Shown here: piece by piece, positions 27,484 to 49,696 of the stretch
How positions within the stretch are numbered: the stretch's first letter is position 1
Layout of the letters: each line of letters starts with the position of its first letter
Source of the DNA: Candidatus Nanoarchaeia archaeon
GTDB lineage: Archaea > Nanobdellota > Nanobdellia > Woesearchaeales > GW2011-AR4
Length of the DNA stretch: 64,000 nucleotides
Assembly: GCA_035288865.1 (NCBI GenBank)
Contig: DATDZA010000035.1
Location: forward strand, 6,758-70,757
Reading direction: 5' to 3'
Program-made: the position numbers and the translations under genes
Notes under the pieces: model-generated
The model's input: only the letters and a program-made list of their open reading frames with translations
Database searches by the model: none
Told to the model about the DNA's origin: nothing

Positions 27484-30400
27484 ATGAAAAGAGGAAAAAT
27501 GGGTGCAACTGTTAATAATAAAATTCGCGCTTTTTCTATTTATGCCCTGATAATACTTTTATTTTCATTGCTTAGGGGAGATAGAATGAAAATTAAAAAT
27601 AAAAATTCTCGAGAACATCTCATGTTCGTAACATTTTTGATATTTTTGATTAGTCTTAATTTTGTGTATTCAACAGGTGAGTCATGCATTTCCGATTCAG
27701 ATTGTAACGGAGGTGAGATATGTTCAGGGAGTGTTTGTACTGCACAAAATCTTTGCGGCGATGGAGTGTGCAGTGGAGAAACACCTGTAAGTTGCCCCCA
27801 AGATTGCAAGTATTGCGATGATAAATGTGATCCTCAAGGATGTTTTCCCCAATCTTACGGAAAAAGAATATACACTCCATATTTTGGCACTTGTTATCCC
27901 TCTTGTGGATTTAAAGGAGGAAGTTGTTTATCCAATCCCAATCAATGCTCATATCCTGTTGTAAATGCTGGTTATGAAACTTGGGATTGTGAAGGATATT
28001 GCTGTGTATCATCTTCATCAACAGTAACGGTAACTGCTTCCCATACCCCTCAAAATCCATCAGCGTCGAGTACTGTTGTAATAACTGTAGGATCTTCACA
28101 AGTAGTTAATTTCTTAGATATTAATGTTGGAAGTACCGGCAAAGAAACGTGCTTAAATACCAATACTTGTACTTTTAGTTTCCTCGCGAGTGTTTATGGA
28201 ACTACTTCTTATGATTATTATGGAACCGCAAGATCACAAGCAATTGAATTAGGAAGATCAGGAACAAACACTATAACCTTAGGAGGGGGATCATCACAAC
28301 TAACAGCAACTCCAAATTCTGTAAATATAGGTGTAGGAGAAAATAAACCTAATCAAGCAACTATTTCAGGCGGCTCAGGAGGTTATAGTATTAAAGAAGC
28401 ATGCAACAGCGCTATTGCGTGGTGTGATTTATTGGGACCTAATAAAGATTCACTTTACGTCGAGGGAAGAAGTGCAGGCTCAACAGCCATTAAAGTAAAA
28501 GACAGCGTAAATGCCGAAGTGACCGTCACAGTTAACGTCGGCACCGGCGGTCCAACTGGATGCGGCGCAAGAGGATGGCGAGATTATCCTAGTTGGGGTC
28601 AATGCCAAGAGTGCGATCAAAATCCTCCCGGCTGTGGAGGCAGAGGATGTGGAGAAGCTGAAGCATTCTGTGATGGAACTAATTGGAATAATCAATATTC
28701 TCCTTTTGTAAAAGACAGCGACAAGGGAACAGCAACATCTGGCCATGCATGCCCATGCGCAGGAAGCACACAATTATGTAACGGACAACCAAGACCAACA
28801 ACTCCAGCATGTCCGCAAGGCCAAACTTATCAATGTGTAAATACTCCGCCTGAGACCGGTAACTTTTGGGTATGTAGGAGTGGAACATCAAGCTGCCCAG
28901 CATGCAGTCCTCCCGGATCAACAGACGTGAAAGCAAGAGTTTTGAAAGCACAGTCGTGCCTGCCTGTTGGGGCTTCAAGCATGGATTGCCTAGTCACAAT
29001 TACTAATGGATTCGGCGGATGCTCAATCAGCAGAACGCCGCGTTTTCCAGGCTCATCAATAATCAGCTGTAACAAAATATCTGGATGCGGAACTGGAGCT
29101 GATTTATTTAGTATGATAGAAAATGGCCCGGGAAATTGTGTAGGTGCTGCAGGGCCATGGAGATATGAAACTGGTGGGAGTGGCACATGCCCAGCATGCA
29201 CTTCTCCAGGAACAACAGATGTAAAAGCAAGGGTCTTGCAAGCGCAGTCGTGCATGACCCCAAGTCCTTCAAGTATGGACTGTCTGGTTTCCACGGTTAA
29301 TAGTTGGGGAGGCGGCCAAATCAAAAGACGTTGCTGCAAGCCAGGCGGAAGTGAACCTCGAGATGATACAATTGACACCCCAAATGGAAGAATTATAGAT
29401 TTGATATCCAGCTGTTGCGACCTTCCAGAATCGAGATGGGCATATATGGATGTAACAGATGGCGGAGGAATCGATAATGAATTGCCCAAGATAGACTCGG
29501 TCACCCCAAACCCAGTAAAAACTGGAGCAACATTGACAATCAACGGCAAAAGCCTCGTGGCAACAGTGCAATATTTTGATTCTGCCAGAGTAATGAGAAC
29601 ATATATAGGGCACACAAATAGTGCAGCAACACAAATAATAATTCCAGTGCCAAGTGATTTTAAGCCAGGGCAATACACTGTAAGAATATACGCCGCGGCT
29701 GACAGAATTTCAAATGAAGTTCCAGTAACAGTTATAGCAGGAACTCAGAAATGCTCACCTGATGGATCCGCTTGCGGATATTGCGAAGAAGAATCACAGT
29801 GCCTACTCGATCCTCTGACCCCAACGGAAACGCAATGCATCAGCTCAGGCCAGTATTCTGGTGACAATTTCTGCGACAAAGGGCAATGGACGACAAGAAC
29901 TAAATTGCTTGCATTAAAGTTATTGAAGCTAAAAAGTGCCGACTATGTTTTATTCTGTGATAAGAAAGAAGTTTCATTAAATACTTTACAATACTTAACT
30001 GCTTCAAGCCAGGACGCATATACTGCATTAAGCAATTTTGATCCGAATAATTTCTGCGTGCTGAAAAACAATAATGCGGTAATCGGCGGGGCATCATTAA
30101 ATGGAAATCTAAGCACGAATTCAGGAAGCATTAATGTTTTTGGAGTTACCAATTGTAATGGCGCAATGGCATTTAATGATAACCAATATCATCCATGTGG
30201 CTCAAATAATGTGTGGTACAACAACGGACTTAACAGCATTATTTTTAGCAGTACTTCCATTTCAATAAGTTCTGATCAAGAACAGACTAGCTTTATAGTC
30301 AACATTATTCAATCAATAATTGATGCTATTAAGGGGTTGATAATAAAATCGCCTTATGACGAATCCTACTTGAATAGCATCATGAAATTCCGACAGCTGT

Positions 30401-30672
30401 ATATGAGCATACAAGGCAGTAAATCTATAATGGGCTCAATGGATTTCAACGGGCAGCAGTATCTTAACACCGTCATAGAGTACCGAGGCTTTGATGATAA
30501 CCTGTGCGTCTTAGTGGATAGCTACAACGTGGCAAATTCAGATCCCTCTTCTGGAATAGCGTGCGCGCAGAAGGGGCAAGATTTCTACGTGCTTGCCCAG
30601 GGAAGCCAATTTACAAAATTAAATCCTGATGATGTATGGCTGGATTTAACCTCCAAGTTGAGGATAAAATGA
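27484..30672 (+). CDS. locus gene A: large exported Cys-rich protein with IPT/TIG-like domain
   Basis: 1062-aa ORF. There are two N-terminal hydrophobic segments; an alternative start at ATG 27586 (MKIKNKNSREHLMFVTFLIFLISLNFVYS) is preceded by GGGGAG. It has many Cys, including vicinal CC, and a ~50-aa internal duplication (CPAC[ST][PS]PG[ST]TDVKARVL[KQ]AQSC...SSMDCLV). An IPT-like segment reads ...SVTPNPVKTGATLTINGKSL...GQYTVRIYAA.... Confidence 0.8.
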   Translation: MKRGKMGATVNNKIRAFSIYALIILLFSLLRGDRMKIKNKNSREHLMFVTFLIFLISLNFVYSTGESCISDSDCNGGEICSGSVCTAQNLCGDGVCSGETPVSCPQDCKYCDDKCDPQGCFPQSYGKRIYTPYFGTCYPSCGFKGGSCLSNPNQCSYPVVNAGYETWDCEGYCCVSSSSTVTVTASHTPQNPSASSTVVITVGSSQVVNFLDINVGSTGKETCLNTNTCTFSFLASVYGTTSYDYYGTARSQAIELGRSGTNTITLGGGSSQLTATPNSVNIGVGENKPNQATISGGSGGYSIKEACNSAIAWCDLLGPNKDSLYVEGRSAGSTAIKVKDSVNAEVTVTVNVGTGGPTGCGARGWRDYPSWGQCQECDQNPPGCGGRGCGEAEAFCDGTNWNNQYSPFVKDSDKGTATSGHACPCAGSTQLCNGQPRPTTPACPQGQTYQCVNTPPETGNFWVCRSGTSSCPACSPPGSTDVKARVLKAQSCLPVGASSMDCLVTITNGFGGCSISRTPRFPGSSIISCNKISGCGTGADLFSMIENGPGNCVGAAGPWRYETGGSGTCPACTSPGTTDVKARVLQAQSCMTPSPSSMDCLVSTVNSWGGGQIKRRCCKPGGSEPRDDTIDTPNGRIIDLISSCCDLPESRWAYMDVTDGGGIDNELPKIDSVTPNPVKTGATLTINGKSLVATVQYFDSARVMRTYIGHTNSAATQIIIPVPSDFKPGQYTVRIYAAADRISNEVPVTVIAGTQKCSPDGSACGYCEEESQCLLDPLTPTETQCISSGQYSGDNFCDKGQWTTRTKLLALKLLKLKSADYVLFCDKKEVSLNTLQYLTASSQDAYTALSNFDPNNFCVLKNNNAVIGGASLNGNLSTNSGSINVFGVTNCNGAMAFNDNQYHPCGSNNVWYNNGLNSIIFSSTSISISSDQEQTSFIVNIIQSIIDAIKGLIIKSPYDESYLNSIMKFRQLYMSIQGSKSIMGSMDFNGQQYLNTVIEYRGFDDNLCVLVDSYNVANSDPSSGIACAQKGQDFYVLAQGSQFTKLNPDDVWLDLTSKLRIK

Positions 30673-32786
30673 AAATAAAATCACTCAAATCACAGATTAC
30701 AATGATGATTATAGTCGGGTTAGTGTTATCCATATTAATTGGAATTGTATTTTACATTTCTAAATCTACTGTCAAGAAAACGATACAGCAAGGAGTGAAA
30801 ACAACACAGAGCACTGCTCTCGACACACAGCCGATTAAGGAGTTTGTGTCAAAATGCCAGGACAAGCTCGCAAAAGAGGCAATCACACTTATAGGGAAAC
30901 AGGGTGGTTACATATACAAAAGCCAGGGTGGAGATTTAATTGATTATTCAGGCAGCGATCAGGGCATATTCTTCATCATGTATGGGGGCAATAAAGTTGC
31001 TTACAATATCGAGCAGCCTCCCATTTATTTGATAGCACCTTTTTCTTCAACACCTCCAGATTATCCGTGGATAAGTTTTCCTTACAAGGACTCACAGTCC
31101 AATGATCAAACATTTGACGGAATTTTTGGATTGAGCAATATGCCTCCATTAAATAATTCTCAAGGGCCTAACTCAATTCAATCACAGATAGAAAGTTATA
31201 TCGATAATAAAATGGGAATTTGCGCAGATTTAAAAACATTCACAAATGAAGGTTACGAAATCAGCGTAAACAAAAGCAAAACAACTGCCACTATTGCAAG
31301 TTCTGATGTGAGAATAAAAACCTCAATGCCGATTAGAATAATAAATAAAGCAACGGGCGAGCAAACCTATATTGACGCATTTTCAACATCAGTCAATGTA
31401 AGGGTTCAGGATATTTATTATTTTGCGAAAAGTATTTTAAGCAACGATGTTACGAAAATCAATTTTGATCTTAAGGATGTTGCCAATAATAAGAATTCTT
31501 TCAGAATAGAAGTTCTGGATAATATTTTTTCGAAAGATGACATAGTAATAATTACTGATGACAAATCGCAGATATCTGGAAAACAGTATGAATATAGACT
31601 TGCCAGAAAGAATAGGGCTCCTGCGCTTTATTACATAAAGGAGAATATAATCCAACTTCCGCGAGATTATATGATATACCAAGATGACCTTATAAGGGGG
31701 TCGGAACTGAACGCTGAAGACCCTGATGAGGATTCTGTAAGGATAACCATTACGGACCAGCTCAATCCAACAGGAAACACTCCAGCAGGAAACCCTCCTG
31801 GAGCAAAGCTTTTTGGTCGGGAAAAATTCTTTGTTGTGGTATCTTATTTTGATGCTTTGCGAGCTTCGGATAGCACACTCGATTCGGATTTTACATATTT
31901 AAAATCAAAAGGAGTAGATGGAATAAGAATATTTCCGAATTGGTGGAACTGGAATAACGGCGATCGCCAAGCTGCAACTGACACTTTGATAGACGAAAAC
32001 GGAAATCTTAGACAGAGCCAATTAGACAGGTTGAAAATTGTTTTGGACAAAGCAAAAAACAAAGAATTTATTGTGGATGTAAGCTTTGCAAGGGAAGTGG
32101 CAGGGCAAGAGGTTATAGATATTAACGAATATAAAAATGGAATTATAGAGGCCGTAGGCATGATAAAACAGGACGGCTACAAGGATATACTGATTGATAT
32201 ACAAAACGAGCATAATGGGGGAATAACTTATCTAAGCGACAATGATGTGAAGGATATAAGGGACGATATAAAGCAAATTGCTCCTGATTACCCCCTTGGA
32301 GCATCAATTGCTTACGACGCATCTACTTCTTATGCCATAGATGCAGCTAATGTTGTAAATCTTGATGTGATTTTGTACCATGATCCGCGCACTGCCGATT
32401 GGTACCAAAGAACAGGGCAAGTGGTCAATGAGCTTAAGGTTTCTGGCAAGCCAGTCTATCTGGAGGAGCCGGAAAGATGGATGCCGGGAAGTTCCCTGAC
32501 CAGCAACGACTTTATGACTGCGATGACGCAGGCAAAATCCGCAGGAGCCGCTGCATGGACATTTCACACAGAGGCAGGGTTTGACCTTAGATCTGACTCA
32601 TTGCAATCACAACTAAGCAGTGTTGAGCGCGAATTTTTAGATTCAATCAATGGACTCCAGCTCAACCCGATTGGCATAGGATCTAATCTGCCCGTAATGC
32701 TTGACAGGCCGCAAATAAAATTTAGAATAGAGGCAAGCGACGGAATTTTATCAGATTATCAAATTATAACGGTAAACCAAGAATGA
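30669..32786 (+). CDS. locus gene B: pilin-like leader plus clan GH-A-like TIM-barrel domain
   Basis: The start ATG at 30669 overlaps the stop of A (ATGA). Leader MKIKSLKSQITMMIIVGLVLSILIGIVFY. Residues encoded by ~31827-32590 show (beta/alpha)8 glycosidase-like landmarks: IRIFPNWW, IDIQNEHNG (NE at 32205-32210), ILYHD, PVYLEEPE and AAWTFH. Confidence 0.5.
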   Translation: MKIKSLKSQITMMIIVGLVLSILIGIVFYISKSTVKKTIQQGVKTTQSTALDTQPIKEFVSKCQDKLAKEAITLIGKQGGYIYKSQGGDLIDYSGSDQGIFFIMYGGNKVAYNIEQPPIYLIAPFSSTPPDYPWISFPYKDSQSNDQTFDGIFGLSNMPPLNNSQGPNSIQSQIESYIDNKMGICADLKTFTNEGYEISVNKSKTTATIASSDVRIKTSMPIRIINKATGEQTYIDAFSTSVNVRVQDIYYFAKSILSNDVTKINFDLKDVANNKNSFRIEVLDNIFSKDDIVIITDDKSQISGKQYEYRLARKNRAPALYYIKENIIQLPRDYMIYQDDLIRGSELNAEDPDEDSVRITITDQLNPTGNTPAGNPPGAKLFGREKFFVVVSYFDALRASDSTLDSDFTYLKSKGVDGIRIFPNWWNWNNGDRQAATDTLIDENGNLRQSQLDRLKIVLDKAKNKEFIVDVSFAREVAGQEVIDINEYKNGIIEAVGMIKQDGYKDILIDIQNEHNGGITYLSDNDVKDIRDDIKQIAPDYPLGASIAYDASTSYAIDAANVVNLDVILYHDPRTADWYQRTGQVVNELKVSGKPVYLEEPERWMPGSSLTSNDFMTAMTQAKSAGAAAWTFHTEAGFDLRSDSLQSQLSSVEREFLDSINGLQLNPIGIGSNLPVMLDRPQIKFRIEASDGILSDYQIITVNQE

Positions 32787-41770: not shown

Positions 41771-42049
41771 ATGGTTGGAGTTAATCGTAGGTCGCAAGGA
41801 ATGCCGGTAAATGTAATAATTATAGCAGTTCTTGCCTTGATAGTATTAGTCGTTCTGACTATTATATTTACTGGCAGGATTAGGATATTTTCATCAACTT
41901 TGGAAAGTTGCCAAGCAAAACAAGGGCAGTGTGAAACTGGCCCTTTTTGTTCATCCAACAAGGCACTTGTTACTGGAACCAACTGTCCGGAAACAGCACA
42001 AGACAAACCTAATAAAAAAATATGTTGTGTTCAAGTATTAAATCCATAA
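41771..42049 (+). CDS. locus gene I: small pilin-like protein (paralogue of H)
   Basis: 92 aa: MVGVNRRSQGMPVNVIIIAVLALIVLVVLTIIFTGR..., ending ...KKICCVQVLNP. Confidence 0.7.
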   Translation: MVGVNRRSQGMPVNVIIIAVLALIVLVVLTIIFTGRIRIFSSTLESCQAKQGQCETGPFCSSNKALVTGTNCPETAQDKPNKKICCVQVLNP

Positions 42050-42059: not shown

Positions 42060-42182
42060 ATGCAATCTCTATTTAAAAAATCCCAATCAAGGAATGTTTT
42101 TGTATGGATTATAGGCCTTGCGCTAGCTATACTATTTCTATTGGTAGTAGGGAGGGTTTTAGGTGTCCTTAGGCCAAAGTAA
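42060..42182 (+). CDS. locus gene J: 40-aa micro-protein with pilin-like leader (tentative)
   Basis: Not in the track. ATG at 42060, stop at 42180-42182. My translation is MQSLFKKSQSRNVFVWIIGLALAILFLLVVGRVLGVLRPK. It overlaps the GTG start of K by 20 nt. Confidence 0.35.
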   Translation: MQSLFKKSQSRNVFVWIIGLALAILFLLVVGRVLGVLRPK

Positions 42183-43368
42183 TAAGGGAATTGAATGGAA
42201 CTTTCTGATTGAAATCCTTCTCCTCCTAGTTGCAACAACTCTAATAATTACAATATTTACTATAGCGGCAGGAAGGGCTGACGACAAAACATCAGAAAAT
42301 CTTTGTAGGGGATTTAACGCGATAAGATATGCTACTCAAATTGGGGAGGGTAAATTGAGTATAACTGCTGCGCCTAATGCGTGTAAAACAATAGATAAAA
42401 AAGATGTTCCTAGCAAAGATTATAAGAACAATGCCGATAGCACTAAGGACGGCGCCCAAAAAGAAATCAGAGATTTAATGGCAAGGTGCTGGTGGATGTG
42501 GCTTGAAGGAAACCAAAAAAATATGTTTGATAAAAGTTTTTATAACTGGCAAAATGGATGTTTTATATGTTATACTTTTTCAACTGGCAAAGATGTGGGA
42601 TATATGAAGTATGAGGATCTTTCGACATCTCTAAATCAACCTTATTATGCTGTAGATAAGACGGATAGATGTGCTCCTTTAGGCCAAGGAGGGAAGTGTA
42701 TGGATTCTTGCACCGAACCATTTACAACAGAAGTACCCTCGAGCAAGTGCAATCCTCAAGAAAGTTTAGCTGTAGAAATGGGCAACAAATTAATTAATCC
42801 AGACTCAACGACAGGTTCAAACTCAAAAACCGATGGGAAAACCAGCACAGGAGTTCAAATAAGAAAATGCTGCGCTGCCGAAAATGAATGTGAAAATCGG
42901 GGTGGGAGATGCCTGCCTAAGCCTGATCAAGTTTATTCGGTTCCTTATACAGGCTGGGCGTGCAAGCAAGGTCATTGCTATTTGGAACCAGACAGAATGG
43001 CATCTTATCTTGATTACATACAGGGAACAAGAGGAGCAGGCGGAGGCGCCGGAAAAGTTCTTTTCTTAAATGAGGGTGGAATCAATCCCAGAACAAAATA
43101 TGCAATTACTTTTGTAAGCCCTGGAGATAGTTCATGGAACTGGAATTTTGTTGTTAAAGCTGGAACAGCAGCAGGAGCTATAGGCGCGGGTATATTATTA
43201 CAAGCAGTTCCTGTTATTGGCACTGTTGGGGGTTTGACCATGGCGGCTGTAGCATCCTACGAGTTAATATCAGCAGGAAATCCATCTGAGTATAATTATA
43301 TTTTTGTATCAAGCTACGATAGTGTGAAAAACCAATGTGAAATAGAAGCAGGAGCTGGTGAAAAATAA
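42163..43368 (+). CDS. locus gene K: class III (pilin-like) leader protein, Cys-rich, unknown function
   Basis: 401-aa ORF with a GTG start. Leader SLGQSNKGIEWNFLIEILLLLVATTLIITIF. It contains ...IRKCCAAENECENRGGRC... and a Gly/Ala-rich hydrophobic C-terminal region. Confidence 0.7.
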   Translation: MSLGQSNKGIEWNFLIEILLLLVATTLIITIFTIAAGRADDKTSENLCRGFNAIRYATQIGEGKLSITAAPNACKTIDKKDVPSKDYKNNADSTKDGAQKEIRDLMARCWWMWLEGNQKNMFDKSFYNWQNGCFICYTFSTGKDVGYMKYEDLSTSLNQPYYAVDKTDRCAPLGQGGKCMDSCTEPFTTEVPSSKCNPQESLAVEMGNKLINPDSTTGSNSKTDGKTSTGVQIRKCCAAENECENRGGRCLPKPDQVYSVPYTGWACKQGHCYLEPDRMASYLDYIQGTRGAGGGAGKVLFLNEGGINPRTKYAITFVSPGDSSWNWNFVVKAGTAAGAIGAGILLQAVPVIGTVGGLTMAAVASYELISAGNPSEYNYIFVSSYDSVKNQCEIEAGAGEK

Positions 43369-43512: not shown

Positions 43513-44340
43513 ATGGCAGAAGCAATTCTTGGAAAAATTATTCAATGGGGTCTTTTACTTATTTTTCTATTCATCGTTATGTTTGCGTTTCTCAATCCAA
43601 AATTTGGCCTGATGCAGAAAATTGGAAAAGCATCACTAAGTTTTGAAAGATTTCTTCCCGACAGTCCAAGCAAAGATGTGGCTGCAGACCAATCCCTGCC
43701 AAAAGAAGCGACAAGCATCCAGCAAAGGTTTCTCAGTGAAATCTCAACATATTCTGACAAAAGCAATTGCCTGCTAAGATTTAGCGATCTTTCAGGCTTA
43801 GAGGATACAAAACTTGAACTTGTCAATTTCGAAGGCAAAATTTCTTCCAGAATTCAAAAACCTACAGGACAAAAGTTAAATCCCATTCCAACGGGAATAA
43901 ATGTTCAGCTTTGCAAAATTAATGCAGAGGAGCTGTATAATTGCTGCCTTAAAAATAATGAAGCTACAGATTGTAGTAAGTGCGGCTCACAAATATACTC
44001 AACGATAAGTTCTGTGTTATTATCAAATGATAAAATTGTATTGAGCAGCCTTAAGTCTGGGGAGTATAATTATGCAAAAGGATTGATATTTAAGCCAACT
44101 GCAGATAGAACGTGTTTTATTCCTGTGTATTCAGGATGGTTTACCAAACCCGGATGCGAGGCATCAGGGGATAAGTTAGATGATGATTGTATTACAGATA
44201 TAGAGATAAAAATTTCAAATTGTGGGGAATCAAAGTCATGTAAATCACCCAATCTCTGTGTATCTGCTCCTGAGTGTAGTGGCTCGGTAATAACAAACGA
44301 AGCATGCCAAAATGACCAAGTATGTTGCGCATTTAACTAA
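43513..44340 (+). CDS. locus gene M: N-terminally anchored exported protein, Cys-rich C-terminus
   Basis: 275-aa ORF. N-terminus MAEAILGKIIQWGLLLIFLFIVMFAFL, with no [KR]-[GAS] motif. It ends ...CSGSVITNEACQNDQVCCAFN. Confidence 0.7.
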   Translation: MAEAILGKIIQWGLLLIFLFIVMFAFLNPKFGLMQKIGKASLSFERFLPDSPSKDVAADQSLPKEATSIQQRFLSEISTYSDKSNCLLRFSDLSGLEDTKLELVNFEGKISSRIQKPTGQKLNPIPTGINVQLCKINAEELYNCCLKNNEATDCSKCGSQIYSTISSVLLSNDKIVLSSLKSGEYNYAKGLIFKPTADRTCFIPVYSGWFTKPGCEASGDKLDDDCITDIEIKISNCGESKSCKSPNLCVSAPECSGSVITNEACQNDQVCCAFN

Positions 44341-44341: not shown

Positions 44342-44614
44342 ATGAAAAACAAAAGAGCTTCTGAATCAACGATATGGCTTGTTGTTGTAATTGCGCTTCT
44401 TTTACTTTTTTTCCTTATATATTCCGGAGTGCTTGGAAAACTTTACAATAAGATATTTTCAGGAACCAGTAAGCAAATAGACAGTACAAATGATGATGAT
44501 AATGACGGCGTTGCAAATTTTATGGACAAATGCCCTGGAACAGATACTGGTGAACCCGCAGACCAATCCGGATGTTCCTCGGGACAAAAAGAAAATAAGA
44601 ATCCCTTAATCTAA
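44342..44614 (+). CDS. locus gene N: small pilin-like protein with thrombospondin type 3-like Ca-binding motif
   Basis: Start taken at ATG 44342, 1 nt after M. 90 aa with leader MKNKRASESTIWLVVVIALLLLFFLIYS, then DDDNDGVANFMDKCPGTDTGEPADQSGC. Confidence 0.65.
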   Translation: MKNKRASESTIWLVVVIALLLLFFLIYSGVLGKLYNKIFSGTSKQIDSTNDDDNDGVANFMDKCPGTDTGEPADQSGCSSGQKENKNPLI

Positions 44615-44615: not shown

Positions 44616-45302
44616 ATGAACAAAAAGAAAGGAATGGCAATAGAGGCCCTTATGAGGATCATAATAGCAATCATACTTCTTTTTATAGCGATCAAGGTTG
44701 GCCAAAAAGTGGTAAGCATTTTTGCAGGAAGTGATGCGCCAAAGAGCCTCGAGGATTTTACACAAGAGCTTAATGACCCTAATTTTAAGAACGGTGACTC
44801 CAAATCTACTTTTGTGATTTTAGATCCTGATATGGCAGTAATCGGTTTCAGCAAAAGTGCCACGGAATTTAGATGCTATGGCTGTCTTAATGACAAAGAA
44901 TATTCAGGCAAACTGATTTATTATTCAATGAAAAAGCCTGCTTATTCTGAGTGCAGTGACAAGGCGTGCGCATGTGTTTGCTTAAGTGATTTTAGCGCTT
45001 TGCCTGCTTCAGAGGGAGAAGCAAGAGAGTTATACTGCAGAAAATTTTATTGCAGGACATTAACAACAGATATTGCTTCTGATCTTTCGCTTCAAGGTCC
45101 AAGAAAAAGGTCTGGGGTGGATTTGCCTTCTTACCCTTATTGGCAAAATGGATTTATGTTTGTCAGGGCAACTAGTTCGAGTACACCTTCAAATGGAATG
45201 AATCCCCCCAACAGCGATAGAAAACAGGCAATCTGCATTGCAAAAATTAACAGAGGTGGAAATTTTTATTCTGCAGCACTTCCTTTGGCCTGCGCCAGCT
45301 AA
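44616..45302 (+). CDS. locus gene O: class III (pilin-like) leader protein, Cys-rich
   Basis: 228-aa ORF, 1 nt after N. Leader MNKKKGMAIEALMRIIIAIILLFIAIKV. Confidence 0.7.
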   Translation: MNKKKGMAIEALMRIIIAIILLFIAIKVGQKVVSIFAGSDAPKSLEDFTQELNDPNFKNGDSKSTFVILDPDMAVIGFSKSATEFRCYGCLNDKEYSGKLIYYSMKKPAYSECSDKACACVCLSDFSALPASEGEARELYCRKFYCRTLTTDIASDLSLQGPRKRSGVDLPSYPYWQNGFMFVRATSSSTPSNGMNPPNSDRKQAICIAKINRGGNFYSAALPLACAS

Positions 45303-45343: not shown

Positions 45344-45757
45344 ATGAAAAAAAGAGGACAGCTCGTAAATAAGGCTCTTATAGTTTTAATCACTTCTGCC
45401 GTAGTTATAATCACTTTTTATTCCGCTGGCAAAACGTATGGGAACAAAGAAGCTTATTATAGGCTGGCTGTAGCTAAAGACATAGCGCTTACAATAGATT
45501 ATTTGTATTCTATTCCGGGAGATGTGGAATTTATTTATCCCAATGAAGTATCTGACTATGACATTGAAATAACAGATAATTCAGTAAGAGTTTATCAGCA
45601 CGGTTCCGGAAAGCTTGACGCGACTGCTGGAATTTATGGGTATGCTGGAACATCTTACGATAAAATAAACACATTTGTTTCAGGACCGAAATATATCGAG
45701 ATTAAAAAAACAGGGAACACAATTACAGCGATTGGCCTGCAGGATAAAACAATCTGA
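45344..45757 (+). CDS. locus gene P: class III (pilin-like) leader protein
   Basis: 137-aa ORF. Leader MKKRGQLVNKALIVLITSAVVIITFY. Confidence 0.7.
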   Translation: MKKRGQLVNKALIVLITSAVVIITFYSAGKTYGNKEAYYRLAVAKDIALTIDYLYSIPGDVEFIYPNEVSDYDIEITDNSVRVYQHGSGKLDATAGIYGYAGTSYDKINTFVSGPKYIEIKKTGNTITAIGLQDKTI

Positions 45758-45768: not shown

Positions 45769-46275
45769 ATGATACAAACTATTTTTACCAAATTCATAAA
45801 ATCAAAAAAAGCAGAATCCCAGCTTTGGGCACCCGACACTATGCTTTTTTGGATACTTTATGGGATAGTACTGGGGTTTGTTGCGGTTTTTTTTGTTATA
45901 ATTGTTGCAAAAACCGGCTCGGAACAAGCAACTATTTACGGCAACCTTGAAAGCATGTATCTTTCGCAACGATTCCTTAAATCGCCTGAGTGTTTTTCGT
46001 ATAAATATGATGGGATATTAATGGTCAATACAATAGATGCTAAAAAATTTACCAGTGAGCAGATAAATAGCTGCTACGACCCGAAGAATTTGGAAATGGC
46101 TGCATTTAGGATAACCCTGAGTTCAACTTTAATAAAATCTTTTGAGCCCGTGATGACGAAAAACTGGAATACTAATAGAGAATACGCGCAAAAACCTGCA
46201 CCGTACAATGTATTAGTTTACTCTGATGGAAAATTTTACAATGGTGAGCTAACAATTGAGATACAAAATATCTAA
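45769..46275 (+). CDS. locus gene Q: pilin-like/anchored exported protein
   Basis: 168-aa ORF. N-terminus ...KSKKAESQLWAPDTMLFWILYGIVLGFVAVFFVIIVA. Confidence 0.65.
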   Translation: MIQTIFTKFIKSKKAESQLWAPDTMLFWILYGIVLGFVAVFFVIIVAKTGSEQATIYGNLESMYLSQRFLKSPECFSYKYDGILMVNTIDAKKFTSEQINSCYDPKNLEMAAFRITLSSTLIKSFEPVMTKNWNTNREYAQKPAPYNVLVYSDGKFYNGELTIEIQNI

Positions 46276-46777
46276 AAATAAAAAAGGGATAGGGATAGAT
46301 GATGCATTGCCGCTTATAGTTTTTATACTTATTGCCGCTTTTGTAATTTTTGTTTTCCGCATATATGATAGCACAAAACTGGATAAAACAATCAAGAGCA
46401 TTCAGCAGCCAAAAGACGAAATGTATGGCCACGAAATCCTGATCAATTATCTGTCACAAACTGATTCGAAAGGCAACAGCAAAGCAAAAATTATTTCCGA
46501 GCTTTACGTTGGGGGGGAATATGACCAAATAAGTATAGATCTTCAGGCATATTTCAAATCCAAGCTTGAGCCAATAGCAAGATGGGACATTGATATTGTT
46601 ACAGTATATAATGAAAATGTACTTTCTGTAAAAGGGGGATTTTCACCGAATGCAGACAAGCGCTTTATCAATTCAATAAAAATCCCAATTAATTCCCAAA
46701 AACCAAATTACCTTAGTATTCGACTTTTTATGTCAAGGGACTTGCCAATTGATTTTTATTCTGCAAAGGTTGGATAA
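46256..46777 (+). CDS. locus gene R: class III (pilin-like) leader protein
   Basis: 173-aa ORF with a TTG start that overlaps Q by 20 nt. Leader ...SKNKKGIGIDDALPLIVFILIAAFVIFVF. Confidence 0.65.
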   Translation: MRYKISKNKKGIGIDDALPLIVFILIAAFVIFVFRIYDSTKLDKTIKSIQQPKDEMYGHEILINYLSQTDSKGNSKAKIISELYVGGEYDQISIDLQAYFKSKLEPIARWDIDIVTVYNENVLSVKGGFSPNADKRFINSIKIPINSQKPNYLSIRLFMSRDLPIDFYSAKVG

Positions 46778-46778: not shown

Positions 46779-47912
46779 ATGCTAAGAAGAAACAAGAAAG
46801 GTATTGGATTAGAATGGTATATGCTTATTGTTGCAGTTTTCATAGGTTTTACGACCTTTTTTGTATATCATTTCAGCGGCCAAAAGATAATGGATAATTT
46901 TATTGGTGATTATCAGTTTTCTATACTAAGGTCGGTTCAAGAATCTGAAAAAACCCTCTTTTACGTCGACCAATCCGCCCAATATTCTCTTGAGCAGTCA
47001 GTCTACGATTTGGCAAATAGCGGCGGAGTTTCTGAAATTGAAATCAGTGATGAAGAAAATTTTGCGGGCTACGAATGCGGAAAATATAATGATGCTTATG
47101 TATGGTATCAAGTGATAAAAAAAGACGGGAAGTATGATGCCCAAGAATGTTTTGATGAAAAATCTGCTGAAACAAATCTTGCTTACACGTTTAATCGAAA
47201 CCTTGACAACTATCTTGTAAGTTATCCTGGCAATATACCAACTGATAACTATAAATATGAATTCAAAAATAATCTGGAGATAATCGGCCTTGCTGCATTG
47301 CCGGTTTATATTAATATTTTTAAAAAAGAAATACCGGAAGATTTCTCTACAGAAGCTCGCGAGATTAAGCCAAAACCCCTTGATGCCAAGCAGTTAGATA
47401 AAGACACCACAAAAAATTCTGAAGGATTCAGAGACTTTACAGGCACGGATTTGTGCGCCAAGGGCTCCCGATGCGTCCTTAAGGAAAATGCTTTCCAGCA
47501 GCTTGTGAAAGCGCAGGATGCTGCTGTAAAAAAAGGAATTTCGCTTGAAGTTTATTCTGCTTACAGATCATCGGAACAGCAGCAGGCACTATGGAACGGA
47601 GATACTCCGGAAAAATACGCAGACCGGTATAAAGACCCGACTGTAAGAATAAAATATGTCTGCGATCCAAAAGGTGGAGAGATCAAATGCCCCCACTTGA
47701 GCGGCAATGTTGTTGATATAAGATTGAAAGGAAAGACAACTAAAACAATGAACAGCGCTGAATGGAATATTTTGTACAGTATTATGACTTCAGCAGACTC
47801 AAACAAGCAGCCTTTGTGGGTTAAATACTCAAACGAGCCGTGGCATTTTGAGTGCTGCAATACACCAAGATACTCAAGAGCTATAGAAAAAGGAGTGACT
47901 TCAATAGTGTAA
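46779..47912 (+). CDS. locus gene S: pilin-like leader fused to VanY/M15-type (LAS) zinc peptidase domain
   Basis: Start taken at ATG 46779, 1 nt after R. Leader MLRRNKKGIGLEWYMLIVAVFIGFTTFFVY. The C-terminal domain carries SAYRSSEQQ (from 47556), H-x6-D in CPHLSGNVVD (His 47694-47696, Asp 47715-47717) and EPWHFE (His 47844-47846). This is the D,D-carboxypeptidase VanY / L-Ala-D-Glu peptidase motif set. Confidence 0.7.
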   Translation: MLRRNKKGIGLEWYMLIVAVFIGFTTFFVYHFSGQKIMDNFIGDYQFSILRSVQESEKTLFYVDQSAQYSLEQSVYDLANSGGVSEIEISDEENFAGYECGKYNDAYVWYQVIKKDGKYDAQECFDEKSAETNLAYTFNRNLDNYLVSYPGNIPTDNYKYEFKNNLEIIGLAALPVYINIFKKEIPEDFSTEAREIKPKPLDAKQLDKDTTKNSEGFRDFTGTDLCAKGSRCVLKENAFQQLVKAQDAAVKKGISLEVYSAYRSSEQQQALWNGDTPEKYADRYKDPTVRIKYVCDPKGGEIKCPHLSGNVVDIRLKGKTTKTMNSAEWNILYSIMTSADSNKQPLWVKYSNEPWHFECCNTPRYSRAIEKGVTSIV

Positions 47913-47917
47913 ATAAA

Positions 47918-49696
47918 ATGGAAACAAAAGATTTAATTTTATTGCTGATGATTCCTGTAATGCTGGTAGGAATAATTACTTTTGTTAATAATAATTCCAT
48001 AACTGGAAATGTTGTCGCTGAGCAATCTGATAATGAAAAAATTGGAACTTATTCCGTCATGCCTTCTTTCAGAGCAAAGATTGATTACAGTCTGCAGGAT
48101 TATTCTGATTTAAAAATTAAATTAAAAACTGCAATTGATAAATGCTTTGCAAGTAAGCAACAGGATGTCAAAGATTGCATCAGGACCGAAACAAATAAAG
48201 ATGGATATAATTGGAATTGCAATGAAAAAGATTCTGACGTGCTTTACGATTTTACAGACAAGCTGAAAGAATGCATTAATCTTGAAAATGAAAATTATGT
48301 ATGCAGGTTTTCTTTTGATTCAAGAGGCTTTCTGAACACGGAAAAACCTAAAAGAAATTTTGAGATTAAATTAACAAATTGGTATTATCCAAGAATAAAA
48401 GCTGAATTGTTTGAAGATGACGATATTCTTCTTGGGACAGAGTTTATTGAAGCAGGAAAACTGTTTTATACTGATTATGAAAACAAGGACAAGGAAAGTA
48501 AAAATTTAGATTCTATTACTATTAAAATTAATTATGAAGATGGAATTCCAGTTGTTACTGATTCACATGCAACTTTTAAAGATAAAAATATTGACAGGAC
48601 AGTAGGATTAAGCAAAATATTTTTAATTTACAAATCCAAAGAAGGCATTAAATTCATCGACGAGCGTTTTGAGTCAAGCTTCAGAGGCCCAGAGCCTGCA
48701 AATACAATAATTGACCTGCCGCGCATGCAGGGTATTGATTTTTGCGCAAAAACGGGGAAAAAAGTTACTGCTTATGACGCCTCGGACGGAAAAGTTAAAG
48801 AACGGGAAATTGTTTACAAGTTTGCAATTATGCTGCCGAATCCTGTTCCTGCTCCCGTCGAGCTATTTGATGCAAAAGATAATCTGAAAGCCGAAAATTC
48901 TGCATTATTGGCCTGGGGAAAAGATTCGCAGGCAGGCATTAAATCCTATTCAGTTTATTATTCAACGAAAGATTTTATTGATGTGGAGATGAGCGATATC
49001 AAAAAAGATAATGATATCAAAAAAGTTTCAATTTTAATTAATAATCCAATCGAAATTGAAAAAGTTGATTTGGATAAATGCGAATTTAATCCGACCAATG
49101 AGCCCTGCAAATACAAGAATTATGGCAACCCATTGTTAAAAAATAAATTGTATTACATTAAACCCGAAAATAAATTTGTTTATGTCCTTTCAGATGTTGA
49201 TTTTAAAGACGAGACTGATTATAATATTGCAATCACCGCTGTAAATGATAAAAATGAGGAGATTGACAACGACAATTCAATAAAAGACAATAAGAATATT
49301 TTTGATATTGGAAAAAATTATCTTTGGTTCTCTTCAAATGATGATTTGCCGCCTGCTAAAATAATTAATTTAAAAAAAGAAACAGGTTCGGATGGCAAGA
49401 TAAAACTATTATGGGATTTGCCGACCAAAAACCTTGATGGAACTGATTTGAGTGACCTTAAAGGATTTAATATCTATTACAGAAAATATCTTGTCGGGCC
49501 TTTTGTAATTGCGTCATCTAATATAGACTCATCTTTTTCTAAAAAGGAAATAAGAGTTTCTGATGCTGGGTGCAGCAGCTCACAGCCTCAATGCGGGTAT
49601 GAGATGGAAGAATTGGCAAGCGGGCAGTATTTTATATCTGTTGCAGCATTTGACGATAAGAATAATGAATTCAAGGACACTGCGCAATTAACTTAA
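47918..49696 (+). CDS. locus gene T: N-terminally anchored protein with FN3-like domains
   Basis: Start taken at ATG 47918 (METKDLILLLMIPVMLVGIITFV). Two FN3-like segments: ...ENSALLAWGKDSQAGIKSYSVYYS... and ...GKIKLLWDLP...GFNIYYRKY...GQYFISVAAFDDKNNE.... Confidence 0.65.
   Translation: METKDLILLLMIPVMLVGIITFVNNNSITGNVVAEQSDNEKIGTYSVMPSFRAKIDYSLQDYSDLKIKLKTAIDKCFASKQQDVKDCIRTETNKDGYNWNCNEKDSDVLYDFTDKLKECINLENENYVCRFSFDSRGFLNTEKPKRNFEIKLTNWYYPRIKAELFEDDDILLGTEFIEAGKLFYTDYENKDKESKNLDSITIKINYEDGIPVVTDSHATFKDKNIDRTVGLSKIFLIYKSKEGIKFIDERFESSFRGPEPANTIIDLPRMQGIDFCAKTGKKVTAYDASDGKVKEREIVYKFAIMLPNPVPAPVELFDAKDNLKAENSALLAWGKDSQAGIKSYSVYYSTKDFIDVEMSDIKKDNDIKKVSILINNPIEIEKVDLDKCEFNPTNEPCKYKNYGNPLLKNKLYYIKPENKFVYVLSDVDFKDETDYNIAITAVNDKNEEIDNDNSIKDNKNIFDIGKNYLWFSSNDDLPPAKIINLKKETGSDGKIKLLWDLPTKNLDGTDLSDLKGFNIYYRKYLVGPFVIASSNIDSSFSKKEIRVSDAGCSSSQPQCGYEMEELASGQYFISVAAFDDKNNEFKDTAQLT

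What the first reader, a model, noticed from the sequence alone, without database searches (positions are those of the whole stretch)
27484..49696. 22-kb co-directional locus of ~20 exported-protein genes: candidate surface filament / host-contact apparatus
Every gene between 27484 and 49696 is on the + strand. Junctions are 4-nt ATGA overlaps (30669, 32783, 38704, 40703), 1-nt gaps (after 39186, 40216, 44340, 44614, 46777) or short spacers. The only long internal gap is 41198-41434. All products start with a hydrophobic export or anchor segment. 14-16 of them carry a type IV pilin-like (class III) leader. Three are very large and Cys-rich (1062, 705 and 1974 aa). Two carry predicted wall-lytic catalytic domains: a GH-A-like TIM barrel in B and a VanY/M15 LAS peptidase in S. 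No cytoplasmic protein is encoded inside the locus, and neither is an assembly ATPase (PilB/FlaI-type), a platform protein (PilC/FlaJ-type) or a prepilin peptidase. A set of pilins plus adhesin-like giants plus lytic enzymes is what I would expect for an apparatus that attaches to and locally opens another cell's envelope; this is inference. I cannot place members D, E, F, G, K, M, O, P, Q and R in any named family, and I cannot tell from the sequence whether the locus has been described before.
Basis: partly seen in the sequence, partly recalled or inferred. Interest (0 to 1): 0.85.

Follow-up and report, generated by a model that had tools for sequence, protein, structure and literature searches.

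The report
Pilin-like wall-cutting surface locus of Woesearchaeota
This is a roughly 20-gene block, conserved across a large group of tiny uncultured archaea (Woesearchaeota/Pacearchaeota), that encodes about 14 pilin-like surface proteins, giant adhesin-like proteins and an enzyme that cuts bacterial cell wall, so these archaea probably attach to and breach bacteria.

Summary
Window 27484-49696 carries 18 co-directional, tightly packed genes, and every product starts with a hydrophobic segment. Fourteen carry a conserved prepilin-like leader, [KR][KR][A/G/S] followed by Q/F/I/L and about 20 hydrophobic residues. There is no ATPase, platform protein or prepilin peptidase.

The window comes from a DPANN archaeon (Woesearchaeota / class Nanoarchaeia). 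The locus is not a loose set of secreted proteins. The same gene order recurs in 80 species-level genomes, even where the signature protein E is only 26-30% identical.

The main new result concerns the gene at position Q (VanY/M15 here). It keeps its roughly 200-aa N-terminal module, but its catalytic domain is exchanged among unrelated murein hydrolase families in other genomes: Amidase_2, SLT, M15_3 and M23. Where Q is missing, the next gene sometimes carries GH73 or SLT. Cutting bacterial peptidoglycan therefore appears to be the conserved function.

None of the pilin-like proteins matches a known pilin family. The confident model of E has no fold match.

Best reading (about 0.5): a type-IV-filament-like apparatus, assembled by machinery encoded elsewhere, that displays adhesins and a wall hydrolase against bacterial hosts or prey. 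Whether these genomes encode the assembly ATPase, platform and peptidase could not be tested.

The parts
27484..30672 (+). A: 1062-aa secreted protein with 62 Cys. The true start is probably the second Met at about 27586, which gives a Sec-type signal peptide. A TATA-like CTATAAATA lies upstream.
   Evidence: orthologs of 750-1077 aa lie upstream of B in 26 related loci; no Pfam hit
30669..32786 (+). B: 705 aa with a prepilin-like leader (KS|QITMMIIVGL). The conserved N-terminal ~380 aa has unknown function. A lineage-specific C-terminal GH5-like (clan GH-A) domain is attached.
   Evidence: orthologs are about 400 aa
31809..32783 (+). C-terminal domain of B: an uncharacterised family remotely related to GH5 endoglucanases and mannanases. 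Its closest relatives are bacterial (CPR Paceibacterota 47% identity, Hydrogenedentes).
   Evidence: profile against PDB, best hit 6kdd_A E = 1.9e-4, with GH5/clan-A glycosidases filling the rest of the list; invariant N133-E134 and E220 align with the acid/base and nucleophile residues
32783..38707 (+). C: 1974-aa giant surface protein with 118 Cys. It has a Sec signal, Ig-like domains, Cys-rich repeats, TSP3 calcium-binding repeats, a C-terminal transmembrane helix (aa 1797-1824) and a Lys-rich cytoplasmic tail. Adhesin candidate.
   Evidence: a giant protein hitting the C profile lies upstream of E in 48 of 57 loci; two related giants tested carry Ig-like and/or TSP3 repeats (L036, L085) and a third (L073) only a CarboxypepD_reg domain; none has SLT
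38704..39186 (+). D: 160 aa, prepilin-like leader (RKS|QLYGQIFIYIL). First gene of the conserved D-E-F-G module.
   Evidence: directly upstream of E in 66 of 77 loci
39188..40216 (+). E: 342 aa, the signature protein of the locus. Leader KKA|FEIQFNWIFVL, 4 invariant Cys. The model shows an N-terminal helix (6-57), a beta domain and a C-terminal helical bundle, with no known fold match.
40218..40706 (+). F: 162 aa, prepilin-like leader (RKA|QIQIFETIAVL). Full-length paralog of O and P.
40703..41197 (+). G: 164 aa with 8 Cys, prepilin-like leader (KKA|QTEILGLAIVV).
   Evidence: F and G lie directly downstream of E in 65 of 70 loci
41198..41434 (+). The only long intergenic gap. It holds an archaeal TATA-like box TTTAAATA (41390-41397) and a GAGG ribosome-binding site (41426-41429) ahead of H.
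   Evidence: sequence. Promoter function is inferred from the known archaeal TATA consensus.
41435..41731 (+). H: 98 aa, candidate major subunit. Leader KKA|QGMSINVIIIAAIGLAVLVVLFAIFTGR is nearly invariant across species. The head is variable with 6 Cys and ends in CCC.
41771..42049 (+). I: 92 aa, paralog of H. It has its own TATA box (TTTATATA, 41740-41747, about 27 nt upstream of the ATG). The 6-Cys head has beta-defensin-like cysteine spacing.
42163..43368 (+). J: 401 aa with 16 Cys, leader NKG|IEWNFLIEILLLL, and a second hydrophobic stretch at aa 334-358. It is split into two genes in many relatives.
43513..44340 (+). K: 275 aa with 16 Cys. It has an N-terminal anchor. The leader motif is degenerate here but is KKG/KRA-type in orthologs.
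44342..44614 (+). L: 90 aa, leader KRA|SESTIWLVVVIAL, with a TSP3-like Asp-rich motif. Related to H and I over about 60 columns.
44616..45302 (+). M: 228 aa with 10 Cys, leader KKG|MAIEALMRIIIAI.
45344..45757 (+). N: 137 aa, leader KRG|QLVNKALIVLI.
45769..46275 (+). O: 168 aa, leader KKA|ESQLW... Paralog of F.
46256..46777 (+). P: 173 aa, leader KKG|IGIDDALPLIVFIL. Paralog of F and O.
46779..47912 (+). Leader KKG|IGLEWYMLIV, then a conserved ~200-aa N-terminal module, then a C-terminal VanY/M15 zinc peptidase domain (aa 234-357, about 47478-47849). In other genomes the same position carries Amidase_2, SLT, M15_3 or M23.
47918..49696 (+). R: about 592 aa, anchored by an N-terminal transmembrane helix with no prepilin-like motif. 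One ortholog has an FN3 domain. Some enlarged orthologs carry GH73, SLT or 3D domains where Q is missing.

Best explanation
The stretch is a vertically inherited surface-apparatus locus typical of Woesearchaeota/Pacearchaeota (class Nanoarchaeia, DPANN).

Shown:
- It encodes about 14 proteins from at least 11 families that share only a prepilin-like N-terminus.
- It encodes two giant adhesin-like proteins and one protein whose C-terminus is a murein hydrolase.
- The gene order is conserved across the lineage.
- The hydrolase position is kept while its catalytic fold is swapped.

Inferred mechanism:
- The leaders are cut by a prepilin peptidase.
- The subunits are assembled by a type-IV-filament ATPase and platform encoded elsewhere in the genome, into a pilus or short pseudopilus.
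- The separately promoted ~90-aa proteins H and I form the shaft. Their N-terminal helix is nearly invariant and their knotted heads vary.
- D-E-F-G, always next to the giant protein C, form a priming or tip module that presents the adhesin.
- J to P are further minor subunits.
- Q places a peptidoglycan-cutting enzyme at the cell surface or on the filament.

Archaea of this group are not known to make murein, so the target is presumably the wall of a bacterium. The apparatus would hold the archaeon to a bacterial host or prey and locally open its wall.
For: - Synteny: E relatives occur in 143 species-representative genomes. In the 80 fetched, D lies upstream of E in 66 of 77, F and G downstream in 65 of 70, H/I within 10 kb in 58 of 65, and J, M and N are all present in 35 of 45. 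The locus sits between RNase P p30 and RPA in distant relatives too.
- Leaders: position -2 is K/R, -1 is only A/G/S, and +1 is mostly Q. These are conserved among orthologs in 14 families and enriched in the locus (p = 2e-7). A +1 Gln and a pilin locus separate from the ATPase locus are both documented for Methanococcus maripaludis pili (PMC3875500).
- The families share only the first ~30 residues in profile-profile comparison, as pilins do.
- H and I: the first 35 residues are nearly invariant, the heads vary, there are 2-5 tandem copies, and each has its own TATA box.
- Models: E has a helix at 6-57 plus a globular part (pLDDT 89). H has a helix at 10-44 plus a small alpha/beta head.
- All products have even Cys counts, which fits extracellular disulfides.
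- Q-position proteins (27 scanned): VanY/M15 in 14, Amidase_2 in 3 (E to 1e-28), SLT in 3 (E to 1e-24), M15_3 in 3, M23 in 1 (5e-18). Each domain starts near residue 200, after a conserved N-terminal module. Where Q is absent, GH73 (1e-15) and a borderline SLT hit (E 1.6e-4, just above the cut-off) appear in the next gene.
- Literature: murein hydrolases in Woesearchaeota have been read as signs of bacterial hosts or prey (PMC8204110, PMC9723730, PMC12352652). FlaI, FlaJ and FlaK homologs are reported in Woesearchaeota (PMC8407392). Other DPANN have TadA/B/C/V clusters with no annotated pilins (PMC9563170).
Against: - No product hits any pilin, archaellin or class-III-signal family in Pfam or NCBIfam, even at permissive thresholds.
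- A profile of H/I finds nothing significant in the PDB. The best archaeal filament subunit scores E = 1.6.
- Foldseek finds no pilin match for the E or H models.
- No ATPase, platform protein or peptidase lies in the 64-kb window, in its 10-kb extensions, or within 10 kb of the locus in 80 relatives.
- One study states that type IV pilus components are missing from DPANN genomes (10.1101/2020.05.14.094862).
- A basic N-terminus followed by a hydrophobic helix is also what an uncleaved signal anchor looks like.
- Eight of 37 loci lack a separate Q gene.
- Cleavage, filament formation and the target organism are all untested.
Confidence: 0.5

Rival explanations
1. The locus encodes a membrane-anchored envelope complex, not a filament. 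The N-termini are uncleaved signal anchors, or cleaved but never polymerised as in the Sulfolobus bindosome proteins. Their conserved helices pack with one another in the membrane. The products form a fixed cell-surface layer or contact patch that carries adhesins and a wall hydrolase.
For: No assembly ATPase or platform protein lies near the locus in any of 80 genomes. There is no sequence or fold match to pilins. He et al. report type IV pilus parts missing in DPANN. The weak similarity of F to the bindosome protein BasB is confined to the N-terminus. Eleven or more distinct conserved subunit families is many for a pilus.
Against: Position -1 is restricted to A/G/S and +1 is usually Q across 14 families. 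That is hard to explain for a plain anchor. The near-invariant 35-residue N-terminus of H/I combined with variable heads and tandem copies is the pattern of filament shaft subunits. Pilin loci separate from their ATPase are normal in archaea (PMC3875500).
Confidence: 0.25
2. The locus encodes a surface digestive complex for scavenging. The hydrolases (murein hydrolase Q, and the GH5-like domain of B in this lineage) break down cell-wall debris and polysaccharides in the environment for food. No living host is attacked.
For: These organisms have very limited biosynthesis, and a recycling role has been proposed for them (PMC9723730). B carries a polysaccharide hydrolase rather than a murein lysin. 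There is no pore-forming or injection component in the locus.
Against: A feeding enzyme need not be tied to a fixed position in a 20-gene block of structural surface proteins with giant adhesin-like partners. Only one hydrolase slot is conserved. The GH5-like domain is lineage-specific.
Confidence: 0.12
3. The locus encodes a type-II-secretion-like pseudopilus. The pilin-like proteins form a short piston that pushes the large proteins A and C and the enzymes across the S-layer, rather than an adhesive fibre.
For: There are many minor-pilin-like subunits. D-E-F-G resembles the four minor pseudopilins of bacterial type II secretion in number and sizes, with one large member (my own knowledge of GspH-K). 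Exported proteins are encoded alongside.
Against: Archaeal type-II-like secretion has not been demonstrated. A and C have ordinary Sec signals and need no extra exporter to cross a single membrane. The same unknowns about the ATPase apply.
Confidence: 0.08
4. The locus is a chance collection of unrelated secreted-protein genes, or an integrated mobile element or virus.
For: All products are annotated as hypothetical. One relative has a transposase inserted in the block.
Against: Gene order is conserved across 80 species-level genomes down to 26% identity. The chromosomal position among replication genes is fixed. Base composition matches the flanks. There are no phage or plasmid hallmarks and no match in the viral structure library.
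Confidence: 0.02

Closest known systems
Archaeal type IV pili of the Methanococcus maripaludis Epd type ('system 1' of archaeal type IV filaments)
   Same: Many pilin-like proteins with short basic leaders and Gln at +1. Small major subunits of about 60-90 aa. Pilin genes lie in loci separate from the ATPase and platform genes. System 1 is reported in some DPANN (PMC3875500; 10.64898/2026.04.22.720090).
   Different: There is no DUF361/Class_IIIsignal or any other pilin-family match. There is no conserved +5 Glu in H/I. Position -1 is often Ala or Ser. The locus holds far more conserved subunit families (at least 11) in one block, with no peptidase gene in it. It includes a murein hydrolase subunit and giant Cys-rich proteins.
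Bacterial minor-pilin plus adhesin operons (fimU-pilVWXY1E of type IV pili; GspH-I-J-K of type II secretion); comparison from my own knowledge
   Same: A block of four small or medium pilin-like genes, one of them about twice the size of the others (E), sits beside a very large adhesin gene (C). Major subunit genes are separate and have their own promoters.
   Different: No sequence or fold similarity was found. The organism is an archaeon with a single membrane. A second run of eight more pilin-like genes follows.
Type IV pili of episymbiotic Saccharibacteria (CPR bacteria)
   Same: An ultrasmall, host-dependent cell type from similar habitats uses pili to find and bind a bacterial host (PMC9894109, PMC11623550). 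This would be a functional parallel if the reading here is right.
   Different: Those are canonical bacterial pili with recognisable PilA/B/C/D genes. Here nothing is recognisable by sequence, and the assembly genes were not located.
[quoted passage not shown]
   Same: Large non-pilin-like ectodomains sit behind prepilin-type leaders. F has a weak N-terminal similarity to BasB (E = 0.011).
   Different: Bindosome substrates are sugar-binding proteins encoded next to ABC transporters, and the Bas system has its own ATPase and platform locus. None of that is present here.
Archaeal peptidoglycan hydrolases aimed at bacteria, and the murein lytic transglycosylases already noted in Woesearchaeota/Pacearchaeota
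   Same: Murein hydrolase domains occur in archaea that do not make murein, and have been read as anti-bacterial or host-contact tools (PMC12352652, PMC9723730, PMC8204110).
   Different: Those reports list single genes or giant SLT proteins with Sec/Tat signals or no recognised signal. Here the hydrolase has a prepilin-like leader and a conserved N-terminal module. It occupies a fixed slot in a 20-gene structural locus, and its catalytic domain is interchangeable. In the papers I searched, I found no description of this locus or of that pattern.
Modular lysins of phage tails and the dedicated wall hydrolases of bacterial envelope-spanning machines (VirB1, FlgJ, EtgA); comparison from my own knowledge
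   Same: One structural or targeting module is combined with alternative catalytic domains (amidase, transglycosylase, M15, M23, glucosaminidase) that all open murein locally for a machine.
   Different: Those enzymes cut the producer's own wall or the host wall from a virion. Here the producer has no murein, and the carrier module is pilin-like.

Membership tests
Type IV filament (pilus/archaellum/pseudopilus) superfamily | Subunits carry a class III signal peptide: a short basic leader ending in a small residue, directly followed by about 20 hydrophobic residues. | tested here: met
   Fourteen products fit. Positions -2 (K/R), -1 (A/G/S) and +1 (mostly Q) are conserved across orthologs. The motif is in 11 of 18 locus genes against 1 of 51 others by a strict scan. 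This is motif-level evidence only; cleavage is not shown.
Type IV filament superfamily | A prepilin peptidase (A24 family: PibD/FlaK/EppA) is encoded in the genome. | not testable with these tools
   None is in the window or its 10-kb extensions. Whole genomes could not be scanned. FlaK is reported in Woesearchaeota (PMC8407392).
Type IV filament superfamily | An assembly ATPase of the FlaI/PilB/TadA (T2SSE) family is present. | tested here: inconclusive
   There is no Walker-A ORF of this type in the window or within 10 kb of the locus in 89 fetched loci. Genome-wide presence was not testable. The literature conflicts.
Type IV filament superfamily | A polytopic platform protein (FlaJ/TadC/PilC, T2SSF) is present. 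| tested here: inconclusive
   There is no polytopic membrane protein in the locus and no T2SSF hit in the window genes scanned. Genome-wide presence was not testable.
Type IV filament superfamily | Pilin fold: an extended N-terminal alpha-helix packed against a beta-sheet head. | tested here: inconclusive
   The E model (pLDDT 89) has a helix at 6-57 plus a beta domain and a helical bundle. The H model (pLDDT 75) has a helix at 10-44 plus a small alpha/beta head. Foldseek against the PDB gives no hit with E <= 0.001 for either.
Known archaeal pilin/archaellin sequence families (Pfam and NCBIfam models for archaeal pilins, class III signal peptides and archaellins) | A significant profile match. 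| tested here: not met
   No such hit for any locus protein at E <= 0.01 to 10, nor among the 25 most-matched of 72 Pfam families listed for the 85 H/I family members at E <= 5. A profile against the PDB gave nothing significant.
Epd-type pilins (EppA substrates) | +1 Gln, +5 Glu and the DUF361 motif. | tested here: not met
   +1 Gln is present in B, D, F, G, H, I and N. Acidic residues sit at varied positions (+1 to +7) and are absent in H/I. There is no DUF361 hit (definition from PMC3875500).
LAS zinc peptidases, VanY/M15 (protein Q) | Pfam match above the curated cut-off, plus the zinc ligands H-x6-D and a C-terminal His. | tested here: met
   PF02557 scores 33.1 bits against a cut-off of 25, E = 5.7e-8. 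HLSGNVVD and EPWH are present and kept in most orthologs. The sequence aligns with the YodJ carboxypeptidase 4ox3, but that hit is not significant on its own (E 0.17).
Glycoside hydrolase clan GH-A / GH5-like (C-terminus of B) | A (beta/alpha)8 barrel with the Asn-Glu acid/base after strand 4 and the Glu nucleophile after strand 7. | tested here: inconclusive
   There is no Pfam hit. The family profile hits 33 PDB sequences, nearly all GH5 endoglucanases/mannanases plus a few other glycoside hydrolases, best E = 1.9e-4. Invariant N133-E134 and E220 align with the catalytic residues. The barrel itself was not modelled.

The most novel reading that the evidence does not exclude
Woesearchaeota and Pacearchaeota, a large part of archaeal diversity in groundwater and sediments, share a lineage-defining 'lytic pilus'. 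It would be a type-IV-filament-derived organelle built from a dozen pilin families that no current model recognises. Its shaft subunits would have disulfide-knotted (partly beta-defensin-like) heads, and one subunit would carry an interchangeable murein hydrolase.

If true, bacteria rather than archaea would be the hosts or prey of this DPANN radiation. The reported absence of type IV pilus components in DPANN would be an annotation artefact. An even more novel version is that these genomes truly lack the ATPase, platform and peptidase set, so the prepilin-like proteins assemble by an unknown route.
Probability: 0.3. Interest if true: 0.85.

Novelty: new variant of a known kind. Interest (0 to 1): 0.72.

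Why it matters
No member of the Woesearchaeota or Pacearchaeota has been cultured. How they live and what they live on are open questions. Every cultured DPANN archaeon so far depends on an archaeal host.

This locus gives a concrete, lineage-wide candidate for the contact machinery, and its conserved murein hydrolase slot points to bacteria as the partners. It gives a likely role to about 18 'hypothetical' families. One of them (E) has about 1,900 clusters at 50% identity and no known fold.

It also offers markers for proteomics, cryo-tomography and host prediction: E, the H/I N-terminus, and the N-terminal module of Q. It may explain why pilins could not be found in DPANN genomes. Finally, the swapped catalytic domains form a natural panel of archaeal anti-bacterial lysins carried on a common module.

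Tried and rejected
- RNA: the tRNA and Rfam scans of the window found nothing.
- Sequence families: Pfam and NCBIfam scans of all locus proteins, also at permissive thresholds, gave no pilin, archaellin, secretion or S-layer family. An alignment-wide Pfam scan of 85 H/I members gave only generic transmembrane-helix hits and a few defensin-type hits.
- PDB sequence searches: B, Q and R gave nothing useful, apart from a non-significant alignment of Q with YodJ.
- Fold searches: Foldseek of the E model against the PDB and the viral library, and of the H model against the PDB, gave no significant match.
- Hunt for an assembly ATPase: a Walker-A scan of all unassigned ORFs in 89 loci found none. 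Clustering of recurrent neighbours found only housekeeping genes and giant surface proteins. One 10-kb step beyond each window end found ribosomal proteins and SecY on one side and fatty-acid genes on the other.
- I tested whether the giant C-type proteins are the SLT-bearing giants described by Castelle et al. 2021. The three tested have no SLT domain.
- The mobile-element or virus origin and the chance-collection idea are rejected on synteny, fixed chromosomal position and composition.
- The intercellular nanotubes seen by cryo-ET in a DPANN co-culture were considered. They originate from the host, so they are not relevant.
- The sigma-70 promoter tool was not used because the organism is an archaeon. 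TATA boxes were read by eye instead.

Full report
**Source organism.** The window is archaeal. The locus is flanked by RNase P p30 (26770-27390) and an RPA-type single-strand-binding protein (49751-50743). Nearby are MCM, TBP, Cdc6, both PolD subunits, RadA and a ribosomal protein operon. Contigs encoding the identical protein E come from Rifle and other groundwater metagenomes. All named relatives are Candidatus Woesearchaeota, Nanoarchaeota or Nanoarchaeia. There are no tRNA genes and no Rfam matches. Base composition in the locus matches the flanks.

**Checking the observation.** Eighteen genes on the + strand fill 97% of 27484-49696. The four ATGA overlaps, the five 1-nt gaps and the single 237-nt gap are as described. 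Every product has an N-terminal hydrophobic segment, and every product has an even number of cysteines (0 to 118), which fits secreted, disulfide-bonded proteins. A and C have ordinary signal peptides. R has a plain anchor. The other products have a short basic leader ending in Ala, Gly or Ser, followed at once by about 20 hydrophobic residues. Under a strict rule this pattern occurs in 11 of 18 locus genes and 1 of 51 other genes in the window (Fisher p = 2e-7). Pfam finds only TSP3 and Ig-like repeats in C and VanY/M15 in Q. There is no ATPase, platform protein or peptidase in the locus or elsewhere in the window. One correction: B is not cysteine-rich (2 Cys).

**Conservation of the block.**
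- Protein E (342 aa) has 167 full-length relatives at 43-85% identity in the indexed search, all unnamed.
- A profile search of 1.84 billion cluster representatives gives 1,909 clusters at E <= 0.001, nearly all 320-380 aa.
- A scan of one genome per species found E relatives in 143 genomes, and 80 loci were fetched.
- I called ORFs in these loci and built iterated profiles from each window protein. The order (A B) C D E F G, then two to five H/I copies, then J K L M N O P Q R, then RPA, recurs throughout. This includes genomes where E is only 26-30% identical and RPA about 45-55% identical.
- Counts over loci with enough flanking sequence: D upstream of E in 66 of 77; F and G downstream in 65 of 70; H/I within 10 kb in 58 of 65; J, M and N together in 35 of 45.
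- In one distant relative the left neighbours are again MCM, TBP and p30.
- In a few genomes the block is split after G or interrupted by a transposase, so A-G is a separable module.
- The locus proteins evolve faster than RPA but keep their order.

This refutes the 'collection of unrelated secreted proteins' alternative and the mobile-element alternative.

**The N-termini.** Alignments of orthologs show that position -2 is Lys or Arg, position -1 is only Ala, Gly or Ser, and +1 is usually Gln (Phe in E; Ile, Leu or Met in others). This holds in 14 families: B, D, E, F, G, H, I, J, L, M, N, O, P and Q. K shows the motif in orthologs but not in this genome. Profile-profile comparison shows that F, O and P are full-length paralogs, H and I are paralogs, and L is related to H/I. 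All other pairs share only the first ~30 residues (F orthologs were partly recruited into the O profile, so that score is inflated, but the recruitment itself shows the relationship). A shared N-terminal module on otherwise unrelated bodies is how type IV pilins look. Gln at +1 and a pilin locus separate from the ATPase and platform locus are both documented for Methanococcus maripaludis pili (PMC3875500).

**Candidate shaft subunits.** H and I are about 90 aa. Across species their first 35 residues (KK[A/G/S]-Q-[S/G]-ISINTIIIAAIALAVLVVLFAIFTGR) are almost invariant. The ~55-residue heads vary but keep six cysteines. They occur in two to five tandem copies. In the window each has its own TATA-like box: TTTAAATA at 41390-41397 with a GAGG site before H, and TTTATATA at 41740-41747 before I. 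Promoter function is my inference from the archaeal consensus. The AlphaFold model of H (pLDDT 75) has a helix at 10-44 and a small alpha/beta head.

**The signature protein.** The model of E is confident (pLDDT 89, pTM 0.82). It has a 52-residue N-terminal helix, a beta-rich domain and a C-terminal helical bundle. Foldseek finds no match at E <= 0.001 in the PDB or in the viral structure library. H also has no structural match. No locus protein, and none of the 25 top-listed families for the 85 H/I members, matches a pilin, archaellin or class-III-signal family. A profile of H/I against PDB sequences gives only insignificant hits. One of these is an archaeal 'flagellin-like' filament subunit at E = 1.6. 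Membership in the pilin superfamily therefore rests on the leader motif and the overall architecture, not on homology.

**The wall hydrolase slot.**
- Q in the window has a VanY/M15 domain at residues 234-357, with the zinc ligands H-x6-D and E-x-W-H. It also aligns, not significantly (E 0.17), with the YodJ carboxypeptidase structure.
- Looking at relatives through the H family, the gene at the same position carried Amidase_2 in one genome and Peptidase_M15_3 in another.
- I then scanned 27 Q-position proteins. Fourteen have VanY/M15. Three have Amidase_2 (E to 1.5e-28), three have SLT lytic transglycosylase (E to 1.3e-24), three have M15_3, one has M23 (5e-18), and two have nothing recognisable.
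- In every case the catalytic domain starts near residue 200, after an N-terminal module that aligns across all 27 (conserved Gly, Ser-Ala, two Cys, Phe and Tyr).
- In 8 of 37 loci Q is missing as a separate gene. In three of these the enlarged next gene carries a GH73 glucosaminidase domain (1.3e-15), a borderline SLT hit (E 1.6e-4, just above the cut-off), or a sub-threshold 3D-domain hit.
- At least five unrelated murein-cutting folds therefore occupy one slot. The simplest reading is that cutting murein is the selected function and the fold is interchangeable.

Archaea of this group are not known to make murein (established knowledge; PMC8204110 says murein transglycosylases are normally absent from Archaea). 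The substrate is therefore bacterial wall.

**B's extra domain.** The C-terminal 325 residues of B have no Pfam match. They do have 248 relatives, mostly bacterial stand-alone proteins of about 345 aa (CPR Paceibacterota 47% identity, Hydrogenedentes), all unnamed. A profile of this family hits 33 PDB sequences, nearly all GH5 endoglucanases/mannanases plus a few other glycoside hydrolases (best E = 1.9e-4). The invariant Asn-Glu and Glu align with the acid/base and nucleophile residues. However, other Woesearchaeal B proteins are about 400 aa and lack the domain. It is a lineage-specific, probably horizontally acquired addition, and it is a polysaccharide hydrolase rather than a murein lysin.

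**What could not be settled.** A type IV filament needs a prepilin peptidase, an ATPase and a platform protein. None is in the window. None is in the 10 kb beyond either end, which hold ribosomal proteins and SecY on one side and fatty-acid synthesis genes on the other. None is within 10 kb of the locus in any relative. I had no way to scan whole genomes. The literature is divided:
- One groundwater study says type IV pilus components are missing from DPANN genomes (10.1101/2020.05.14.094862).
- A comparative study reports FlaI, FlaJ and FlaK in Woesearchaeota (PMC8407392).
- Makarova et al. found ATPases in nanoarchaea without cognate pilins (PMC4858521).
- Other DPANN have TadA/B/C/V clusters with no annotated pilins (PMC9563170).
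- Makarova et al. 2019 noted dark-matter islands of probable pilins in some DPANN, but next to FlaI and TadC (PMC6393860).

The locus here could be the missing pilin complement of this lineage. That remains inference.

**Most likely mechanism (confidence about 0.5).** The leaders are cleaved, and the subunits are assembled by machinery encoded elsewhere. H and I form the shaft. D-E-F-G, always beside the giant Ig/TSP3-repeat protein C, form a priming or tip module that presents the adhesin; this is analogous to the four minor pilins plus PilY1 in bacteria (my own knowledge, an analogy only). J to P are further minor subunits. Q brings a murein hydrolase to the surface or onto the filament. The cell uses this to hold on to a bacterium and open its wall locally. 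The main rival (0.25) is a non-filament, membrane-anchored surface complex with the same adhesin and hydrolase functions. Lesser rivals are a scavenging complex (0.12) and a secretion pseudopilus (0.08).

**Comparison with what is known.** Murein hydrolases in Woesearchaeota and Pacearchaeota, and the idea of bacterial hosts or prey, are already published (PMC8204110, PMC9723730, PMC12352652). Castelle et al. 2021 also list 51 lineage-specific families of unknown function, many membrane-bound or extracellular, which probably include these. In the papers searched I found no description of three things: the conserved locus itself, the shared prepilin-like leader, and the fixed hydrolase slot with swapped catalytic domains. 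I therefore rate it a new variant of a known kind (a type-IV-filament-like system) and not a member of any named pilin family.

Noticed in passing
window 53982-57757 and 60393-63896; L090 1-10000: The archaeal genome carries bacterial-type lipid genes. These are a HAD hydrolase, three tandem PlsC-type acyltransferases and a bacterial NAD-dependent glycerol-3-phosphate dehydrogenase (GpsA). Just beyond the window end there are also FabA, thiolases, a ketoreductase, KAS III and biotin carboxylase. This is already reported for Woesearchaeota (PMC8204110).
   Followed up: partly
window 41771-42049 (I) and I-type genes in L007-L088: The heads of the I-type small subunits have the cysteine spacing C-x6-C-x3-6-C-x9-18-C-x5-17-CC, which is the beta-defensin framework. 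Sixteen of 85 H/I members fall within tight beta-defensin-like limits. A few members hit the defensin families AtDEF-like (4e-5) and Defensin_beta_2 (8e-5). This may be a chance resemblance between small disulfide knots, or it may be functional.
   Followed up: partly
window 42060-42182 (+): A 40-codon ORF, MQSLFKKSQSRNVFVWIIGLALAILFLLVVGRVLGVLRPK, has a prepilin-like N-terminus and no head. It overlaps the start of J in another frame and is also called as a gene on near-identical contigs. It may be a decayed H/I copy or a headless subunit.
   Followed up: no
window 12133-12969: An 838-bp AT-rich intergenic region lies between the divergent ribosomal protein operon and cdc6/orc1, which is followed by PolD. 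The coding strand and GC skew switch here. There are short repeats (AACCCATTT..TTTTGTTG twice, GTTTTGTTGTT twice). This is a candidate replication origin.
   Followed up: no
window 31809-32783: The closest relatives of B's GH5-like domain are bacterial, with CPR Paceibacterota best at 47% identity. Other Woesearchaeal B orthologs lack the domain. This looks like a horizontally acquired domain fused on in this lineage.
   Followed up: partly
L009/L040 3600-10000; L008/L039 12000-21000: In one relative an rve-family transposase and other genes (5.7 kb) sit between D and E. In another the block ends after G and unrelated genes follow. Module A-G can therefore be separated from H-R.
   Followed up: partly
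J orthologs in L012, L014, L016, L020, L022 and others: The 401-aa protein J is encoded as two adjacent genes of about 260 and 300 aa in many relatives, and both halves hit the J profile. This suggests an internal duplication or a fission/fusion history.
   Followed up: no
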